Below the pieces are notes generated by a model, which was not told the origin of the DNA, made no database searches, and saw only the letters and a list, made by a program, of their open reading frames with translations. A program made the position numbers and the translations under genes. Below are positions 1 to 8,389 of a DNA stretch of 8,389 nt, piece after piece; position 1 is the first letter of the stretch, and each line of letters starts with the position of its first letter. Source of the DNA: a virus; UHGV virus genome UHGV-1378212, one strand, 5' to 3'.

Positions 1-55
1 GGACGGATTACCATCAATGTACAAATGTGTCGCTTTACCTTCGCCATTAGATCCT
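1..55. repeat. Terminal direct repeat, copy 1 (identical to 8288-8342): assembly overlap of a circular genome
   Basis: 55-nt string ggacggattaccatcaatgtacaaatgtgtcgctttaccttcgccattagatcct occurs at 1-55 and again at 8288-8342; sequence diverges only where adapter begins. Confidence 0.9.
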
Positions 56-382: not shown

Positions 383-565
383 ATGGCAAAGCGCACGACT
401 TATAACGTGACGGAAGAAAGAAAAATGAAACTAGAACGACTGGCTATAAATGCCAGTGTAAAACTAGGAAAAACAATTACATGGACAGAGATTTTAGGTT
501 ATCTGATTGATAACTACTCTAAAGATGCAGCAGAAGATCTCATGTCTGCCAAACAAAAGGATTAA
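383..565 (+). CDS. Small DNA-binding protein, ribbon-helix-helix (CopG/Arc-like) candidate; possible repressor
   Basis: 60-aa ORF MAKRTTYNVTEERKMKLERLAINASVKLGKTITWTEILGYLIDNY...; N-terminal basic beta-strand (KRTTYNV) followed by two predicted helices with G-x-T at helix-2 start fits RHH pattern; no clear SD (possible leaderless or weak RBS); first gene of a terminated plus-strand operon. Confidence 0.45.
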   Translation: MAKRTTYNVTEERKMKLERLAINASVKLGKTITWTEILGYLIDNYSKDAAEDLMSAKQKD

Positions 566-610
566 GTACCACGAATGGTACAAACGTGCAGTATTACCAA
601 CACTGCACGT
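566..610 (+). promoter_or_regulatory. Two adjacent perfect stem-loops immediately after the RHH gene stop
   Basis: Hairpin 1: GTACCA-cgaa-TGGTAC at 566-581; hairpin 2: ACGTGCAGT-attaccaac-ACTGCACGT at 584-610, followed by T-rich tctagtttgt. Confidence 0.5.
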
Positions 611-680
611 TCTAGTTTGTGCAAAACTTAAACAAAAAGTAAGTCATCGAGATAAACAAAACGAGTCAAAGTATATACTG

Positions 681-1098: not shown

Positions 1099-1802
1099 TG
1101 AAATCAGATATGGATGTTCACGGTATCATTGATAATCAAAAAAAAGAAATTGAGCGTTTATATGAAAAATATACTGAGTCATTAGAGTGTTACCTATCTG
1201 GTAAATGTGATTTTGATACCGTGAATTCATGTGGAGACAGTTTTTTCGGCTATTTAGAACACTGCGCTGCACATAACAGAACAGTAGATGAATTAAATAA
1301 TACTCAATGGAATCAATGGCTTGCAGAAACATGCATTGATGTTCTTCACCTTATCTTAGCTCATTACAAAAAATATAGAGAGGTAATGAATGATAATAGT
1401 ATTAAACCAAGCTCCACTGCTTTTGCTTCAATGCAAAGGATAGTAAAAGCCCATGACAAACGTTCTGCAAAAGAAATAAGGAATCTTTTCGTTAATGAAG
1501 ATATGCCAGTATATGGATTTGACAATAAAGGAAAAGAAAAATTGACAAAAGCACACGAGAGAATAGCGGCATTTAGCTTTGGCATTTTACTTGTTATTCT
1601 TTTTATAATAATCGCAATATTTATACCTAATCCAACGAACTTTCAATACACTTTCTTTCGAATAATTCTTTCAGCAGCAGTTGCTGGGGTAGTCTCATTT
1701 ATACCCGGGTTTATAGAAGTCAAAATATCAAACTGGGTAAGAGCAGGTGGAGCATTAGCTGTATTTGTGATTGTCTATTACGTGGCTCCCGCAGCATTAT
1801 GA
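1098..1802 (+). CDS. Hypothetical membrane protein: Cys-rich soluble N-terminal domain (~165 aa) plus three predicted C-terminal transmembrane helices; candidate effector/exclusion protein
   Basis: 234-aa ORF (GTG 1098, alternative ATG 1110); hydrophobic stretches AAFSFGILLVILFIIIAIFIP, FFRIILSAAVAGVVSFIPGFI, AGGALAVFVIVYYVAPAAL at the C-terminus; five Cys in the N-terminal domain; followed by an intrinsic terminator. Confidence 0.6.
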   Translation: MKSDMDVHGIIDNQKKEIERLYEKYTESLECYLSGKCDFDTVNSCGDSFFGYLEHCAAHNRTVDELNNTQWNQWLAETCIDVLHLILAHYKKYREVMNDNSIKPSSTAFASMQRIVKAHDKRSAKEIRNLFVNEDMPVYGFDNKGKEKLTKAHERIAAFSFGILLVILFIIIAIFIPNPTNFQYTFFRIILSAAVAGVVSFIPGFIEVKISNWVRAGGALAVFVIVYYVAPAAL

Positions 1803-1832
1803 ATTGGTTCGCACAATGACGTTATGCTAAAG

Positions 1833-1870
1833 AGGCCGCTGCGGGATTCTATTTTCGCAGCGGCCTTTTC
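1833..1870 (+). terminator. Rho-independent terminator of the plus-strand cassette (possibly bidirectional, between convergent genes)
   Basis: Perfect 11-bp stem AGGCCGCTGCG (1833-1843) / CGCAGCGGCCT (1856-1866), 12-nt loop, followed by TTTT (1867-1870); lies between orf234 stop (1802) and the convergent minus-strand orf77 stop (1938). Confidence 0.75.
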
Positions 1871-1937
1871 AACATAACGAGTCGTACATTATGCGCACCA
1901 ATGGTAAGGATGGTGGGAACTGGCGTTACCGGTGCCG

Positions 1938-2171: not shown

Positions 2172-2244
2172 TTTATCTCCTCGTAATGCTGCCGCGCCGA
2201 ATCAGCAATAACGCTAAAAAAACAGAATTGTTCGGCTTGGCCAA

Positions 2245-2285
2245 CCCCGGACACTAACAAAAGCAAGTTTTGTCACTGTCCGGGG
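2245..2285 (-). other. Stem-loop between orf102 and orf77 (possible terminator/attenuator or single-strand origin hairpin)
   Basis: CCCCGGACA (2245-2253) pairs with TGTCCGGGG (2277-2285); inner ACAAAA/TTTTGT pairing in the loop; a run of seven T on the phage strand lies ~30 nt downstream. Confidence 0.45.
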
Positions 2286-2288
2286 TTA

Positions 2289-2597
2289 TCATATAAACCA
2301 ATAGACCGTCCTTACGCCATTCTGGTTATCAATAACATAGCCGCATTGTTTCCTTAAAAATTCTTCTGCTAAATCAATGGCTTTTAAAGAAATCTCATAA
2401 GAAGGAAGTAAAGTGTATCCTTTCCCTTCACTGGCAGCTGCTTTGATCGCATCCAGAGTATTATCAATCAGTAACAGAGCAAGTGATGCTTCATTTACCT
2501 GAGCCGAAGAACTTCTGGCTGCAAGTGTCATTGTTTTTGCTTCTTCCGCTGTAATCGTTCGTTCTGCCAGAGCAGATAAAATCCCATAAGAATCCAT
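2289..2597 (-). CDS. Hypothetical protein (102 aa), phage-sense cargo gene
   Basis: ORF MDSYGILSALAERTITAEEAKTMTLAARSSSAQVNEASLALLLIDNTLDAIKAAASEGKGYTLLPSYEISLKAIDLAEEFLRKQCGYVIDNQNGVRTVYWFI; SD-like GGGGT 6 nt upstream of ATG; no family recognised. Confidence 0.55.
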   Translation of the reverse strand: MDSYGILSALAERTITAEEAKTMTLAARSSSAQVNEASLALLLIDNTLDAIKAAASEGKGYTLLPSYEISLKAIDLAEEFLRKQCGYVIDNQNGVRTVYWFI

Positions 2598-2617: not shown

Positions 2618-2677
2618 GTCCATTTGATGGATAGCGAGCAGGGCTCACGCACCTACCCGCTATCCATCAAAGTGGAC
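2618..2677 (-). terminator. Long imperfect hairpin at the 3' end of gene IV: candidate gene IV terminator and/or packaging-signal hairpin
   Basis: GTCCATTTGATGGATAGCG (2618-2636) pairs with CGCTATCCATCAAAGTGGAC (2658-2677) with one bulged base, ~21-nt loop; overlaps the gene IV stop (2667-2669); in Ff phages the packaging signal is a long hairpin directly after gene IV. Confidence 0.5.
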
Positions 2678-3932
2678 GAATGATATGTGCTGTAAGCAAA
2701 ATATACATAATACGCTGTTCATTGCTGTCTGCCTTGCTACTGAAAATCCAGCCTATAAGAGGAATTTTACTTATAACTGGAACTGAACGCTCAGCATTGC
2801 TAAACGATGAATCGATAAGCCCCCCCAATAACAACGTCTGACCATCCTTAATCTGGACTGTCGTCTGAATCTGGCGCTGATTAGTAATAATATCGGATGC
2901 CTGATCATCATTGCTGATTGAATCAGCGCGAGTGTCGATAGTCAGAACTAGTTGCCCGTTACCCATGACAACAGGCGTTACCTTGAGAGAAACGCCAACA
3001 TCATGACGCTCGATAGTCTGAAACGGATTATTTACCCCGGCAGATTCGCCCGTTACCTTTCCGGTGATAAACGGCACATTCTTACCTACGGAAATGTAAC
3101 CAGTCTGACCAGACTGAGTAAGAATACGCGGCGTTGAAATCACCTTAGAGCGTGAATTACTCTGGACAGCACGCAGAGACAGCGCCAACACGTTACCATC
3201 AAAAATACCAAAAGAACCGCCCGCCGTAGAAAGAGCGCTACCCAGTGCAGAAGTATTAAAGCCCCCCGCAACCTTATGACCGGATGCAGAACCTGCCGCA
3301 AACGATAAATCAACGCCATCAGACAAGCTGGTTTCAAACATCAGCGACTGAATGAGAACCTGATCGCGGGCAACATCCACAGAATTGATAAAATCGGACA
3401 GAACCGGCAGCAGCTCGTCAGGCGCAGAAACAATCAGCGAGTTATTGCCTGGATAATCCACGACATTACCACCACCATTAGAATCAAGATAAATTTTAAT
3501 CAGTTGCTGAACATCGGACGATCTAACTTTTGTCAGCTTAAAATTTCTGACCGTAAGCGCCACAGGTACTGGCTGGTAAGATGGCTCAGAAGGAAAAGTA
3601 TCATAAGACTGGTTATCAGAATCATCGGAATCCGAAACCATCTGTGAAGGTAATTTAGACGGCAAAGAGACTACCGCAGGATTGCCAGAAAGCATGACAA
3701 AACCGTTAGCATTCAGAACAGACTTAAAGAAATCATCAATATTTGTTGGATTAACATCAGCATTAAATACGGTTACGTTTCCTTTAATATCAGGATTAAC
3801 AATAACAGGCTTGCCAGTTTTTGAAGAATACCACTGAACAAATGAGCGAACAGATGAATTGTTTAAATTAACAGTTTCAGCAGAAACGCAGAATGAACAG
3901 GCAAATAAAAAAGCAACAATAACAGAGCGCAT
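2667..3932 (-). CDS. IV: Gene IV secretin (phage export channel, pIV)
   Basis: From internal ATG at 3930-3932: MRSVIVAFLFACSFCVSAETVNLNNSSVRSFVQWYSSKTGKPVIVNPDIKGNVTVF... resembles recalled M13 pIV N-terminus (signal peptide then VIEMNNSPLRDFVTWYSKQSGESVIVSPDVKGTVTVY); AGGAG upstream; the 452-aa track ORF is an upstream in-frame extension that overlaps gene I. Confidence 0.9.
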   Translation of the reverse strand: MRSVIVAFLFACSFCVSAETVNLNNSSVRSFVQWYSSKTGKPVIVNPDIKGNVTVFNADVNPTNIDDFFKSVLNANGFVMLSGNPAVVSLPSKLPSQMVSDSDDSDNQSYDTFPSEPSYQPVPVALTVRNFKLTKVRSSDVQQLIKIYLDSNGGGNVVDYPGNNSLIVSAPDELLPVLSDFINSVDVARDQVLIQSLMFETSLSDGVDLSFAAGSASGHKVAGGFNTSALGSALSTAGGSFGIFDGNVLALSLRAVQSNSRSKVISTPRILTQSGQTGYISVGKNVPFITGKVTGESAGVNNPFQTIERHDVGVSLKVTPVVMGNGQLVLTIDTRADSISNDDQASDIITNQRQIQTTVQIKDGQTLLLGGLIDSSFSNAERSVPVISKIPLIGWIFSSKADSNEQRIMYILLTAHIIRPL

Positions 3933-3939
3933 AATAATA

Positions 3940-4314
3940 TTACTCCTGACAGATAACAGTCTGTAAATAACGGCCTTTTCTAATAACAACACGACAGGCA
4001 TCTTTAATATCAACGGAATAACCATCTTTAATCAAATCAAAATACTGATATTTCGTACCTTTTGCATCAACAAACGTAACGGAAACGTCAAAGCCAAGTT
4101 GTGAAAAAGAATTAATAGAAAGTCGGGGTAAGTCACTGGACGAATCAGGCGTTACCGCCCTCGCCTGTTCAGCATAAGCAGATTTAATAGCGGAGATTTC
4201 ATCAACATTCTTTCCAGACTGGAGCCAGAAACCAAGCGCAAGCCCCAGCGCCAAAAAAGAAAGCATTAATATAAGACGGTTCGATTTGCGAAAATAAATT
4301 TTCGTGAGGCGCAT
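3940..4314 (-). CDS. XI: Gene XI (pXI), in-frame internal start within gene I
   Basis: Internal Met at residue 241 of pI (ATG at 4312-4314, minus strand) begins MRLTKIYFRKSNRLILMLSF..., matching the position and sequence of M13 pXI start (MKLTKIYLKKFSRV...) including the membrane-spanning segment. Confidence 0.6.
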   Translation of the reverse strand: MRLTKIYFRKSNRLILMLSFLALGLALGFWLQSGKNVDEISAIKSAYAEQARAVTPDSSSDLPRLSINSFSQLGFDVSVTFVDAKGTKYQYFDLIKDGYSVDIKDACRVVIRKGRYLQTVICQE

Positions 4315-5376: not shown

Positions 5377-6626
5377 CACTCACCCCCTTTGCGAAGCAAT
5401 GAAGTTAAAGAAGTAAAGACATACCAGAACGTAAGGCAATAAAAAACCCATGAAAGAACATCTTTAATAGTCAGTAATTTATCGCAACCAATATCAATCT
5501 GATAAACCTCTCCGGGAAAAATAATAAAATCAGAGCAGCCGTTACCATTGGGTAAATTAGGCAGCATAGCACCTTTATTTAAAAATGCTTCCCATAAAGC
5601 ACCGTGAGAATCCTTTTCAATTCCCAATTCAGAATCAGCCAAAGTAGAAGCGCCATCTAATTCAGAGTCGCCCTTTCCATAACGAGAATCACCACCTGAA
5701 GGGTCAGCAAAACGGCCAGCCCCCCGCGTAAGATTGTTAATGGAATCGTCAAGACGATTTATATTATTCCTAGTTTGTTCATCGGCATTTTTTTTATCAT
5801 CTGATGAAGTGTCTTTCTCCGTTAATTTATCATGAATATCGCTGGCTATTTTGGGTGAAGCACCTTCGATAGCAGACTGAATATCACCTTTAGAAAGACT
5901 GGAACCACTAAAGCCACCGCCAGAACTACCGCCACCGGACTCACCACCGCCAGAACTACCGCCACCGGACTCACCACCGCCAGACTCACCACCGCCAGAC
6001 TCACCACCACCATTTTGGGGGGTTGAGGGTTTATCAGAGGGGTCAGCTACAGTACCTGTAGGCTTCCATGTTGCAGCGCAAACAGTACCATCACCCTGAC
6101 AAACAATGACACCAGTAGCCTCATATTCACAGCCGTTATAGTAGATATAACGACCACCATCATATGAATCAACATTATTAAATACACCTTCTTCTGGCGG
6201 CTTCGCTTCACAAATTTCTTCTGGTGTCGGGTCAGTAGGTTTTTCATCAGGAACAGAACGCTGAATATCACCAACAATATAAGCCGTTAAAGACCAATAT
6301 TTATCCTTCTGCCCTGGTGAATCGCTGTAAGTACAATCACCAGTAAAAACAAGACGGAATTCAGAATCAGGCCAGATACCCTCATAAGTTGGTTTAACCT
6401 GAGTAAATACACTCTGAGCACTGGATTTAGCACCCTGACAAGCGGAGGCCTGCATAGCAGCATCAATATAGTAAACCGTTGACTTAGAGCCATCCTGATT
6501 GGTTATTTGCTTACTTTCAGCGTAGGCAGAGCTTTGATAAGTGGATTTAGTAATGCTTTCCCATGACTCAGCATGTGAAAAAGGAGAAATGAGGACAGCG
6601 GAAAGAATTAATATTTTCCTTTTCAT
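5376..6626 (-). CDS. III: Gene III adsorption / minor coat protein (pIII) with signal peptide, Gly-rich linkers and C-terminal anchor
   Basis: From internal ATG at 6624-6626: [19 protein letters not shown]|ESWES... signal peptide; Cys-rich N-domains; linker [33 protein letters not shown]; hydrophobic C-terminal anchor; position after gene VIII terminator; the 464-aa track ORF is an upstream extension overlapping gene VIII. Confidence 0.9.
5914..6011. repeat. Tandem direct repeats (2 x 30 nt, then 2 x 15 nt) encoding the Gly/Ser/Glu linker of pIII
   Basis: ccaccgccagaactaccgccaccggactca at 5914-5943 and 5944-5973; ccaccgccagactca at 5974-5988 and 5989-6003. Confidence 0.9.
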
Positions 6627-6934: not shown

Positions 6935-7030
6935 TTACATTAATCGGTCAGAAAATGATTTAAATGAACCGACCGCATAGAAAAGGGCAAAACCAAAGGT
7001 ATAAGCCCCGAAGAAATAAACGATATACAT
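6935..7030 (-). CDS. IX: Gene IX minor coat protein (pIX), 31 aa
   Basis: MYIVYFFGAYTFGFALFYAVGSFKSFSDRLM, a small hydrophobic protein between gene VII and gene VIII as in Ff; its ATG overlaps the gene VII stop (TAATG); the 74-aa track ORF is an upstream extension. Confidence 0.65.
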   Translation of the reverse strand: MYIVYFFGAYTFGFALFYAVGSFKSFSDRLM

Positions 7031-7116
7031 TAACGAAAGACCCCCGCAGTAATCGCGCCGAGGCCAAAAGAAATAACGATGCCAGACGCTATCAAAATTT
7101 GAATAACATCGTCCAT
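7030..7116 (-). CDS. VII: Gene VII minor coat protein (pVII), 28 aa
   Basis: Hand-translated MDDVIQILIASGIVISFGLGAITAGVFR (ATG at 7114-7116, stop at 7030-7032); small hydrophobic protein in the canonical position after gene V; below the ORF-track size cutoff. Confidence 0.6.
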   Translation of the reverse strand: MDDVIQILIASGIVISFGLGAITAGVFR

Positions 7117-7762: not shown

Positions 7763-8342
7763 TTCTATTCTCCCTACATATTCAGAGAATAATTGACGTG
7801 GTGTTTTCATATTCCAGTTAGCGCCAAGCGTTAAATTTAAATCAATAAGCTCAGTTGTTCTTAATGTTAATTCAATACGTAATTTATCTTTCGTCCAGTC
7901 CAGTAACCCGGCTCGTACAAAATCTTCGGCTATCTGGTGCCCTTTTTTACCCGAAACGTGTTCATCATATTTTGAATAAAATTTCAGACTCCATCGACGG
8001 GAGTTTTTACCTAAATAAACTGTACCGCCTTTCCCACATGCGCGACCATGGCGTGTTTTAGCTTTAAATTCGGCGGCATAAAGCCATGATCTGACATTTT
8101 CTAGCGTAGATAATGAATACATGTAATTAATGTCAACACGTGAAATTTTATACTGACCTGCTATAACAGCTTTATAAGACGCTAAATCATGAGGAATATT
8201 CAATAAGGATAAAATCCTGGCATAGACCGTCAACATGAGCCCTTGTATATCATCCGACCCAACAACAGAATGCCCCTGCAAAAACTTGGACGGATTACCA
8301 TCAATGTACAAATGTGTCGCTTTACCTTCGCCATTAGATCCT
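7448..8342 (-). CDS. II: Gene II replication initiation protein, C-terminal segment (continues at 56-213 via circular junction)
   Basis: 287-aa track ORF plus upstream in-frame codons to 8342; C-terminus ...NNVVPLIRTLEAKPVEIPLWIYEKGFIFDYNRIS matches recalled M13 pII C-terminus (NNVVPLVRFINVDFSSQRPDWY); the track start at 8311 is a TTG, not the real start. Confidence 0.9.
8288..8342. repeat. Terminal direct repeat, copy 2 (identical to 1-55)
   Basis: Exact 55-nt match to window start. Confidence 0.9.
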
Positions 8343-8389
8343 GTCTCTTATACACATCTCCGAGCCCACGAGACGTAGAGGAATCTCGT
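8341..8389. other. Sequencing-library adapter read-through (Tn5 mosaic end plus Nextera adapter with an index-like 8-mer), not biological sequence
   Basis: CTGTCTCTTATACACATCT (Tn5 mosaic end) followed by CCGAGCCCACGAGAC, 8 nt GTAGAGGA, then ATCTCGT (start of ATCTCGTATGCCGTCTTCTGCTTG); begins exactly where the terminal repeat stops matching. Confidence 0.9.

What the first reader, a model, noticed from the sequence alone, without database searches (positions are those of the whole stretch)
2618..2677. Long hairpin overlapping the gene IV stop: candidate packaging signal
A ~19-bp imperfect stem with a ~21-nt loop sits exactly where Ff phages have the packaging-signal hairpin, which doubles as the gene IV terminator. 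Its position defines where cargo was tolerated: both cargo modules lie downstream of it, so it remains adjacent to gene IV.
Basis: partly seen in the sequence, partly recalled or inferred. Interest (0 to 1): 0.45.

Follow-up and report, generated by a model that had tools for sequence, protein, structure and literature searches.

The report
Packaging-signal hairpin of a UPΦ-type filamentous phage
The hairpin at the end of gene IV is real and is the clear counterpart of the DNA hairpin that phages IKe and I2-2 are annotated as using to start virion assembly, so it is an ordinary, expected element of a filamentous phage group that has already been described.

Summary
The window is a circular UPΦ901-like filamentous phage (a relative of IKe and I2-2 that integrates at dif), given as the reverse complement. 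The hairpin at 2618-2677 is confirmed. On the phage strand it forms a stem of about 27 pairs (G·T pairs included) with one C bulge, one T bulge and a GTGA loop. Its energy is -24.5 kcal/mol (z = -7.8), the most stable local ssDNA fold in the genome. The gene IV stop codon lies in its 5' arm.

It aligns with the annotated 'morphogenetic signal' of I2-2 and IKe. The apex, GGGTAGGTGCG-NN-AGCCCTGC, is identical, and the lower stem differs through compensatory changes: 92% of pair cells are paired across 13 distinct sequences, against at most 48% in shifted controls. A covariance model finds one site per phage genome, always at the end of gene IV and clearly favouring the phage strand.

No U-tract follows the hairpin, and the next gene starts 21 nt downstream, so a role as an intrinsic terminator is not supported. 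Variable DNA in relatives begins at or just after the hairpin.

The same apex also occurs in small ColpVC-type plasmids, next to phage-type (-) and (+) origins. That argues it is an independent cis element.

Verdict: a new member of a known kind, of low to moderate interest. Function is inferred, not tested.

The parts
2618..2677 (-). Packaging-signal (morphogenetic-signal) hairpin on the phage (+) strand. From base to tip: 5-bp basal stem, C bulge, 20-bp stem, T bulge, 2-bp GC cap, GTGA loop.
   Evidence: DNA folds. Most stable local fold in the genome. Aligns with the annotated I2-2 and IKe signals. Covariation. Single strand-specific covariance-model hit at 2623-2671.
2638..2658 (-). Conserved apex GGGTAGGTGCGTGAGCCCTGC. 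It holds an invariant T·G pair, a T bulge, a GC cap and a 3-4 nt loop, usually GNNA. It carries most of the ascending-limb motif CGGGT..GGTG, whose first C lies at 2659, just outside this range.
   Evidence: Identical except for the two loop bases in IKe, I2-2, PEar1, several IMG/VR contigs and ColpVC plasmids. The motif is reported for the Ff PS in bioRxiv 10.1101/2023.12.30.573655, citing Russel & Model 1989, and is visible in f1.
2667..4025 (-). Gene IV (secretin). The last three codons and the TGA stop (2669-2667) form part of the hairpin's 5' arm. In the E. coli prophage record NCBI's PGAP pipeline annotates a 421-aa product, which corresponds to a start at window 3932.
   Evidence: Pfam Secretin, Secretin_N and GspD_N0; PHROG 1012. 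PGAP annotation in L003.
7030..7116 (-). Gene VII (MDDVIQILIASGIVISFGLGAITAGVFR). It is the presumed partner that recognises the hairpin at the leading virion tip. The C-terminal Arg is conserved.
   Evidence: Translation. Homologs in IKe, I2-2 and relatives. PGAP names it 'tail virion protein G7P-2'. The role of pVII Arg33 in recognising the M13 PS comes from PMC10480500. Recognition in this phage is inferred.
6935..7030 (-). Gene IX (MYIVYFFGAYTFGFALFYAVGSFKSFSDRLM), the presumed second recognition partner.
   Evidence: Translation. Homologs. Role inferred from Ff.
2289..2597 (-). First accessory gene downstream of the hairpin, taken here to be 'h1' of the UPΦ901 paper by position (102 aa, PHROG 4115, function unknown). 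Its ATG lies 21 nt after the hairpin. It marks the start of the variable region.

Best explanation
The hairpin is the packaging (morphogenetic) signal of this UPΦ901-like phage.

Shown here:
- The 60-nt imperfect palindrome folds on the packaged (+) strand into a duplex of about 27 bp, the strongest local structure in the genome.
- It is homologous to the signals annotated in IKe and I2-2.
- Its apex sequence is invariant, while its lower stem is kept by compensatory changes.

Inferred from the Ff model:
- pV coats the new single strands but leaves this duplex exposed.
- At the inner membrane the pVII/pIX cap, together with pI/pXI, recognises the hairpin, displaces pV and starts addition of pVIII. 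The hairpin therefore ends up at the leading tip of the virion and fixes the orientation of the DNA.
- The invariant apex (T bulge, T·G wobble, GC cap, GNNA-type loop, ascending-limb motif CGGGT-GGTG) is probably the part that is read. The lower stem probably supplies only duplex length.

Because the 5' arm is also the end of gene IV, the element is anchored there. Accessory DNA has accumulated only on its 3' side.
For: 1. Anatomy. The DNA fold gives -24.5 kcal/mol with z = -7.8, the best 70-nt fold on the phage strand.
2. Homology. The blastn alignment with I2-2 runs through gene IV into the feature annotated 'morphogenetic signal'. A three-way alignment shows an identical apex and the same overlap with the gene IV stop.
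3. Conservation. Every relative with a pIV that is 100% down to about 47% identical has a long hairpin straddling or directly following the stop codon, where the contig extends that far, with z from -3.7 to -8.5.
4. Covariation across 13 distinct sequences. 92.3% of cells are paired against at most 47.7% when the partner is slid. 11 of 22 pairs change on both sides. The covariation score is 0.443 against 0.187 in shuffles, and 0 of 500 shuffles reach it.
5. A covariance model finds one site per phage genome, always at the end of gene IV, scoring 66.6 bits on the phage strand and 31.3 on the other.
6. The ascending-limb motif CGGGT..GGTG reported for the Ff PS is present.
7. pVII and pIX are encoded, and their C-termini are conserved with IKe and I2-2.
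8. ColpVC-type plasmids have no gene IV but carry the same apex in a long hairpin with a different lower stem, next to homologs of the phage (-) and (+) origins. The element is therefore kept as a cis signal in its own right.
Against: - There is no experiment on this phage. The UPΦ901 paper does not mention a packaging signal.
- I could not read Russel & Model 1989, so the experimental status of the IKe signal rests on secondary citation, on the GenBank annotation, which says 'pot.', and on my recollection.
- The hairpin folds just as convincingly as RNA (-51.4 kcal/mol, z = -9.2), and mRNA has the same sense as the packaged strand. Folding alone therefore cannot separate a DNA role from an RNA role.
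- Two other large hairpins lie downstream (2243-2287 and 1820-1879) and have no assigned function.
- A subset of close relatives (pIV 76-97% identical) has a hairpin with a different apex, GGGTGCG..AGCCCC, yet almost identical pVII and pIX. Either the apex sequence is read loosely, or only the shared GGTGCG/GCC core matters.
Confidence: 0.8

Rival explanations
1. The hairpin acts mainly at the RNA level, as a terminator or a 3'-end stabiliser of gene IV transcripts, or as a regulator of translation of the downstream gene h1.
For: The RNA fold is very stable (-51.4 kcal/mol, z = -9.2). The IKe record annotates its counterpart as 'pot. transcription termination'. In Ff the PS hairpin is also the terminator after gene IV (my own knowledge of Ff biology). 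The h1 ribosome-binding site lies just after the hairpin.
Against: No U-tract follows the hairpin in the window (GGACATTATTGATTGG), and none is conserved in relatives. The terminator scan does not call the site. h1 starts 21 nt downstream with no room for a promoter, so read-through is needed to express it. The same apex is kept in plasmids that have no gene IV and no gene directly downstream. A secondary RNA role is not excluded.
Confidence: 0.1
2. The hairpin is the complementary-strand (-) origin, that is, a single-strand initiation site. The packaging signal would then be one of the other hairpins, 2243-2287 or 1820-1879.
For: The window has no homolog of the Ff/IKe-type (-) origin, so some other structure must prime the (-) strand. 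The hairpin at 2243-2287 is conserved at about 85% identity even in relatives where h1 is replaced, so it too is functional.
Against: The hairpin is homologous to the IKe and I2-2 element that sits beside a separate, annotated (-) origin. In the ColpVC plasmids the same apex lies next to, and is distinct from, a clear (-) origin homolog. The other two hairpins have no counterpart in IKe or I2-2, although those phages share pVII/pIX C-termini with the window.
Confidence: 0.07
3. The hairpin is a chance or neutral palindrome, or a recombination scar at the gene IV / cargo junction, with no function of its own.
For: It lies exactly at a boundary where similarity between relatives breaks.
Against: z = -7.8 with 0 of 200 shuffles folding as well. 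The covariation and the invariant apex hold across phages whose gene IV DNA is only about 70% identical. The covariance model gives one strand-specific site per genome.
Confidence: 0.02

Closest known systems
Morphogenetic (packaging) signal of the Lineavirus phages I2-2 (NC_001332 2260-2330) and IKe (NC_002014 6141-6196); Erwinia phage PEar1 also has it, unannotated
   Same: It has the same position, overlapping the last 11-14 nt of gene IV, and the same strand. The apex GGGTAGGTGCG-NN-AGCCCTGC is the same, with the T bulge, the T·G pair and a 2-bp cap. The overall architecture is the same (basal stem, bulge or internal loop, long stem). The partner proteins pVII and pIX are homologous.
   Different: The sequence of the lower stem differs through compensatory changes. 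In the window the stem is longer and more regular (20 uninterrupted pairs, against an interrupted stem in IKe). It is followed directly by accessory genes rather than by a non-coding region containing the (-) origin. The host phage integrates at dif.
Ff (f1/M13/fd) packaging signal, hairpin [A], f1 about 5500-5577
   Same: It is a long imperfect hairpin on the (+) strand that begins at the gene IV stop. It carries the ascending-limb motif CGGGT..GGTG. It is recognised by pVII/pIX with pI.
   Different: There is no alignable sequence beyond the short motif, and the covariance model does not detect f1. The Ff hairpin also serves as the terminator of gene IV (my own knowledge), whereas this one has no U-tract.
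Hairpin variant of other UPΦ-type phages (IMG/VR contigs L035/L082, L036/L083, L037, L041, L043, L045)
   Same: It has the same position and a similar length, with the shared core GGTGCG-loop-GCC and the T bulge. Where complete contigs were compared, pVII and pIX are nearly identical.
   Different: The apex is GGGTGCG..AGCCCC instead of GGTAGGTGCG..AGCCCTGC, and the lower stems differ. Similarity to the window breaks at 2664 in four of these contigs and at 2641 in two, even where pIV is 97% identical. The hairpin and h1 have therefore been exchanged together as a block.
Packaging signal of the Xanthomonas integrative filamentous phages φLf, φLf-UK and φLf2 (bioRxiv 10.1101/2023.12.30.573655)
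   Same: It is a cis-acting DNA hairpin needed for encapsidation in a phage that integrates into the host genome.
   Different: The Xanthomonas signal has a short 7-8 bp GC stem with essential loop bases, works in either orientation and usually lies inside the replication gene. There is no sequence relationship.

Membership tests
Ff/IKe-type filamentous-phage packaging (morphogenetic) signal | A long imperfect hairpin formed by the packaged (+) strand | tested here: met
   About 27 pairs, -24.5 kcal/mol, z = -7.8. Strongest local fold of the phage strand.
Ff/IKe-type filamentous-phage packaging (morphogenetic) signal | Located at or immediately 3' of the end of gene IV | tested here: met
   The gene IV TGA (2669-2667) lies inside the 5' arm. 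The geometry matches I2-2 and IKe.
Ff/IKe-type filamentous-phage packaging (morphogenetic) signal | Sequence homology to a signal annotated or characterised in a relative | tested here: met
   The apex is identical to IKe and I2-2 apart from the two loop bases. The blastn alignment with I2-2 extends into its annotated signal.
Ff/IKe-type filamentous-phage packaging (morphogenetic) signal | Structure maintained by selection (compensatory changes) | tested here: met
   92.3% of cells paired, against at most 47.7% when slid. 11 pairs change on both sides. 0 of 500 shuffles reach the covariation score.
Ff/IKe-type filamentous-phage packaging (morphogenetic) signal | Dependence on strand and orientation | tested here: inconclusive
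   By computation the phage strand is favoured: G·T pairs exist only on that strand, the energies are -25.3 against -21.5 kcal/mol, and the covariance model scores 66.6 against 31.3 bits. Functional dependence on orientation needs an assay.
Ff/IKe-type filamentous-phage packaging (morphogenetic) signal | Ascending-limb motif CGGGT followed closely by GGTG (Russel & Model 1989, as cited in bioRxiv 10.1101/2023.12.30.573655) | tested here: met
   The window has CGGGTAGGTG and f1 has CGGGTGTGGTG.
Ff/IKe-type filamentous-phage packaging (morphogenetic) signal | Cognate pVII/pIX cap proteins are encoded | tested here: met
   Genes VII (7116-7030) and IX (7030-6935) are present, and their C-termini are conserved with IKe and I2-2.
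Ff/IKe-type filamentous-phage packaging (morphogenetic) signal | Required in cis for efficient encapsidation, and located at the pVII/pIX end of the virion | not testable with these tools
   Needs phagemid, deletion and virion-end mapping experiments.
Rho-independent (intrinsic) transcription terminator | A GC-rich hairpin immediately followed by a U/T tract | tested here: not met
   The tail is ATTATTGATTGG. The scan does not call the site. No T-run is conserved in relatives.
Ff/IKe-type (-) strand origin | Homology to the (-) origin hairpins of f1 and IKe | tested here: not met
   The hairpin aligns with the PS, not with IKe 6333-6438. The window has no match to the (-) origin homolog found in ColpVC plasmids.
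XerCD dif-like attachment site | Similarity to dif (XerC arm plus central region) | tested here: not met
   The 15-nt identity to dif, GGTGCGCATAATGTA, lies at about 1881-1895, not in this hairpin.
Any Rfam family | A match at the gathering score | tested here: not met
   No matches in the window.

The most novel reading that the evidence does not exclude
The invariant apex (T bulge, T·G wobble, GC cap, GNNA-type loop) would be a sequence-specific packaging code shared by all IKe, I2-2, PEar and UPΦ-type phages. Small ColpVC-type Rep_1 plasmids of Enterobacteriaceae carry this apex together with homologs of the phage (-) origin and of both the IKe-type and the I2-2/UPΦ-type (+) origin cores. 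They would then be natural phagemids or satellites, replicated and exported by these phages. In that case the window's hairpin is one instance of a signal that mediates cross-packaging between phages and plasmid hitch-hiking in clinical E. coli, Salmonella and Klebsiella.
Probability: 0.3. Interest if true: 0.6.

Novelty: new member of a known kind. Interest (0 to 1): 0.27.

Why it matters
For this phage the result fills a gap in annotation. The paper describing UPΦ901 names the genes and the dif site but none of the cis elements. Knowing the packaging signal and the (+) origin (about 565-634) is what is needed to build phagemids or helper systems for a prophage carried by many uropathogenic E. 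coli.

More generally, the comparison gives a defined target for mutagenesis of pVII/pIX recognition: an invariant apex on a freely covarying stem. It also shows that the gene IV / packaging-signal junction is the fixed edge beyond which accessory DNA is exchanged in this lineage.

The element itself is expected and is not surprising to a specialist.

Tried and rejected
- A plain MAFFT alignment of 16 hairpins, including the variant-apex group, gave a poor RNAalifold consensus because indels put the 3' arms out of register. I replaced it with an alignment of the 13 sequences that share the apex, and gave the structure explicitly.
- I tested whether the two apex types go with different pVII or pIX sequences. 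They do not: the proteins are nearly identical. The test therefore does not discriminate between explanations.
- Russel & Model 1989 (PMC250900) is not held, so I could not read the primary evidence on the IKe PS.
- A search for full-length E. coli dif with up to 3 mismatches found nothing. The phage site shares only 15 nt with dif, as seen at the prophage junctions.
- The Rfam scan found nothing, and the terminator scan did not call the hairpin.
- Megablast against the phage collection found no close relative. The relatives came from E. coli genomes, plasmids and IMG/VR contigs.
- Several genome-contig hits to the apex pattern in high-GC, unrelated genomes were chance matches inside coding sequence and were discarded.
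- Literature searches for natural filamentous phagemids, or for a link between ColpVC plasmids and filamentous phages, found nothing relevant.

Full report
**What the window is.** All core filamentous-phage genes lie on the window's minus strand: gII, gV, gVII, gIX, gVIII, gIII, gVI, gI and gIV. They were identified from ORFs, Pfam and PHROGs. The phage (+) strand, which is both the coding strand and the packaged strand, is therefore the reverse complement of the window. Bases 8340-8389 are a Nextera adapter, and 8290-8339 repeat bases 1-50, so the contig is a circle of about 8289 nt.

The same sequence occurs at 99.7-100% identity in 47 complete E. coli genomes. In the strain examined it lies in tandem copies next to hipBA at the dif locus. 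It also occurs as a 7.9-kb 'plasmid' in Salmonella with part of the accessory region replaced. This matches the published UPΦ901 group, which consists of IKe/I2-2-like phages that integrate at dif and carry two forward accessory genes, named h1 and h2 in that paper, plus several reverse ORFs (PMC7307601). That paper does not mention a packaging signal, a hairpin or a stem-loop.

**The observation.** The inverted repeat is at exactly 2618-2677. On the phage strand it folds as a 5-bp basal stem, a C bulge, 20 consecutive pairs, a T bulge, a 2-bp GC cap and a GTGA loop. The energy is -24.5 kcal/mol, with z = -7.8 and 0 of 200 shuffles folding as well.

Those wobble pairs exist only on the phage strand. 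The opposite strand folds less well (-21.5 against -25.3 kcal/mol in the same 96-nt frame). In a scan of the whole genome in 70-nt windows this is the most stable local ssDNA structure. It is followed by hairpins at 2220-2289 (-21.7), 1815-1884 (-21.5) and the (+) origin region at 565-634 (-18.4). The gene IV stop codon, TGA at 2669-2667, lies in the 5' arm, so the last three codons of gene IV are part of the stem.

**Homology to known signals.** A sensitive blastn search aligns the window with phage I2-2 through gene IV and on to window 2629, into the I2-2 feature annotated 'morphogenetic signal'. The IKe record annotates the equivalent stem-loop as 'pot. transcription termination, morphogenetic signal'.

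In a three-way alignment the apex GGGTAGGTGCG-NN-AGCCCTGC is identical. All three hairpins begin 11-14 nt before the gene IV stop, and the lower stems differ while remaining complementary. The ascending limb carries CGGGT-A-GGTG. This is the short motif that a recent preprint, citing Russel & Model 1989, gives as the feature of the Ff packaging-signal stem. It is visible in f1 as CGGGTGTGGTG.

**Conservation and covariation.** I collected relatives in two ways: with an exact-pattern scan for the apex and with the pIV protein. Every relative whose pIV is 100% down to about 47% identical has a long hairpin straddling or directly following the gene IV stop, wherever the contig extends past it. 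In the IKe/I2-2/UPΦ-type sequences that were refolded individually, z ranged from -3.7 to -8.5.

I aligned thirteen distinct sequences that share the apex: the window and variants of it, IMG/VR contigs, I2-2, IKe, PEar1 and two plasmids. I scored them against an explicit 22-pair structure, with these results:
- 92.3% of cells are paired, against 31-48% when the 3' partner is slid by 1-3 columns.
- 11 pairs show changes on both sides.
- The covariation score is 0.443 against 0.187 in column shuffles, and none of 500 shuffles reaches it.
- The eight apical pairs, including one T·G pair, and the T bulge never vary.

This pattern is what one expects of an element in which the apex is read as sequence and the rest as duplex.

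A covariance model built from this alignment finds exactly one site per phage genome, always at the end of gene IV. It strongly prefers the phage strand (66.6 against 31.3 bits in the window). It finds nothing in If1-like phages, in Ff or in more distant relatives.

**A second flavour of the hairpin.** Some UPΦ-type contigs have a pIV that is 76-97% identical to the window's, but a hairpin with a different apex (GGGTGCG..AGCCCC) and different stems. Their similarity to the window stops at 2664 or 2641, inside the hairpin. It resumes only at about 2290-2185 and, in some of them, again at about 1925-1804. Where complete contigs were compared, their pVII and pIX are nearly identical to those of the window. 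Recognition therefore tolerates both apices, or reads only the shared GGTGCG/GCC core with its T bulge.

**Terminator or packaging signal?** The hairpin is equally impressive as RNA (-51.4 kcal/mol, z = -9.2), and mRNA has the same sense as the packaged strand. Even so, an intrinsic-terminator role has little support:
- No U-tract follows it in the window, and none is conserved in relatives.
- The terminator scan does not call it.
- The h1 start codon lies 21 nt downstream behind a GGGG ribosome-binding site, which requires read-through.

**An independent argument from small plasmids.** The apex-pattern scan also hit small contigs in Kluyvera and Pantoea. These belong to a family of 1.5-2.4 kb plasmids, one of them typed as a ColpVC replicon, with at least 25 records in the PLSDB plasmid collection from E. 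coli, Salmonella, Klebsiella, Enterobacter and Lelliottia. The one examined in detail encodes a Rep_1 rolling-circle protein and no phage structural genes.

On the Rep-coding strand they carry, in order:
- a 145-nt homolog of the IKe/PEar1/f1 (-) origin, at 79-82% identity;
- a long hairpin with the same apex as the window but a different, complementary lower stem;
- an IKe-type (+) origin core;
- an I2-2/UPΦ-type (+) origin core.

The hairpin is thus kept where there is no gene IV to terminate, in the company of the other cis elements that a phagemid needs. This favours a role in DNA packaging over a role tied to gene IV.

**Context in the window.** The (+) origin aligns with the nick regions of f1, IKe and I2-2 at about 565-634. 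That is about 2 kb downstream of the hairpin, rather than about 0.4 kb as in IKe. Between the two lie h1, a conserved hairpin (2243-2287), h2, the dif-like site (about 1881-1895), another hairpin (1820-1879) and three reverse ORFs.

The window has no homolog of the Ff/IKe (-) origin. One of the two downstream hairpins may serve that role. This is why I keep a small probability that the functions of the hairpins are assigned differently.

**Mechanism, and what is shown or inferred.** Shown here are the fold, its strand bias, its homology to the annotated signals, its covariation, its uniqueness in each genome and the presence of pVII and pIX. The rest is inferred from Ff: pV leaves the hairpin exposed, and the pVII/pIX cap with pI/pXI recognises it and starts assembly, so that the hairpin ends up at the leading tip. 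Nothing has been tested in this phage. I could not read the primary genetic paper on the f1 and IKe signals.

**Verdict.** The element is a new member of a known kind in a phage group that has already been published. I put 0.8 on the packaging-signal explanation and rate interest at about 0.27.

The most novel reading left open concerns the shared apex and the small plasmids that carry it. They may be natural phagemids of this phage lineage (probability about 0.3).

Noticed in passing
L122 (NZ_CP041120.1) 508-958; L026 1900-2260 (minus strand); also L119, L120, L121, L028: Small plasmids of 1.5-2.4 kb in Enterobacteriaceae (L122 is typed as a ColpVC replicon; L026 encodes a Rep_1 protein) carry four filamentous-phage cis elements and no phage structural genes. 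The elements are a homolog of the Ff/IKe (-) origin, a hairpin with the IKe/I2-2/UPΦ packaging-signal apex, and two tandem (+) origin cores, one IKe-type and one I2-2/UPΦ-type. They look like natural phagemids or satellites of these phages. I found no paper that says so.
   Followed up: partly
window 8290-8389: Bases 8340-8389 are a Nextera transposase adapter. This explains the matches to the ends of many unrelated phage records. Bases 8290-8339 repeat window 1-50, so the contig is a circle of about 8289 nt with an assembly overlap. Gene II is split across the ends of the window.
   Followed up: yes
window 1798-1913 (dif-like site at about 1881-1895, plus the hairpin at 1820-1879): The phage attachment site shares GGTGCGCATAATGTA with E. 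coli dif, and the prophage lies in tandem copies next to hipBA. The roughly 100 nt running from this site through the adjacent 24-nt-arm hairpin also matches about 400 mostly conjugative plasmids at 90-95% identity, in unannotated DNA (E. coli, Klebsiella, Salmonella, Pantoea, Serratia). What this element does on plasmids is unexplained. It could be a Xer site or a remnant of phage integration.
   Followed up: partly
window 2243-2287 (conserved block 2185-2292): A hairpin with 20-nt arms and a 5-nt loop begins immediately after the h1 stop codon (-21.7 kcal/mol). It is conserved at about 85% identity even in relatives whose h1 is replaced, and it has no counterpart in IKe or I2-2. Its function is unknown. 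It is a candidate for the (-) strand origin, because the window has no Ff/IKe-type (-) origin.
   Followed up: partly
window 565-634: The (+) strand origin, GAACGTGCAGTGTTGGTAATACTGCACGTTTGTACCATTCGTGGTAC on the phage strand, aligns with the nick regions of f1, IKe and I2-2. It lies among the reverse-oriented ORFs, about 2 kb from the packaging signal. The ORF listing output shows a 104-aa ORF (507-821) across it, but PGAP annotates only 681-821.
   Followed up: partly
L004 (Salmonella 'plasmid' NZ_CP140410.1, 7938 bp): This is the replicative form of a variant that is about 99% identical to the window. The three reverse ORFs at window about 670-1800 are replaced by a gene for a death-on-curing (Doc) family toxin. 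The hairpin, h1, h2 and the dif-like site are unchanged.
   Followed up: partly
L123 (K. pneumoniae plasmid pBio3, locus 1134-2784): A gene II/X-family replication gene, followed by the same (-) origin homolog and packaging-signal-like hairpin, lies on a 328-kb conjugative plasmid immediately upstream of blaCTX-M-15.
   Followed up: no
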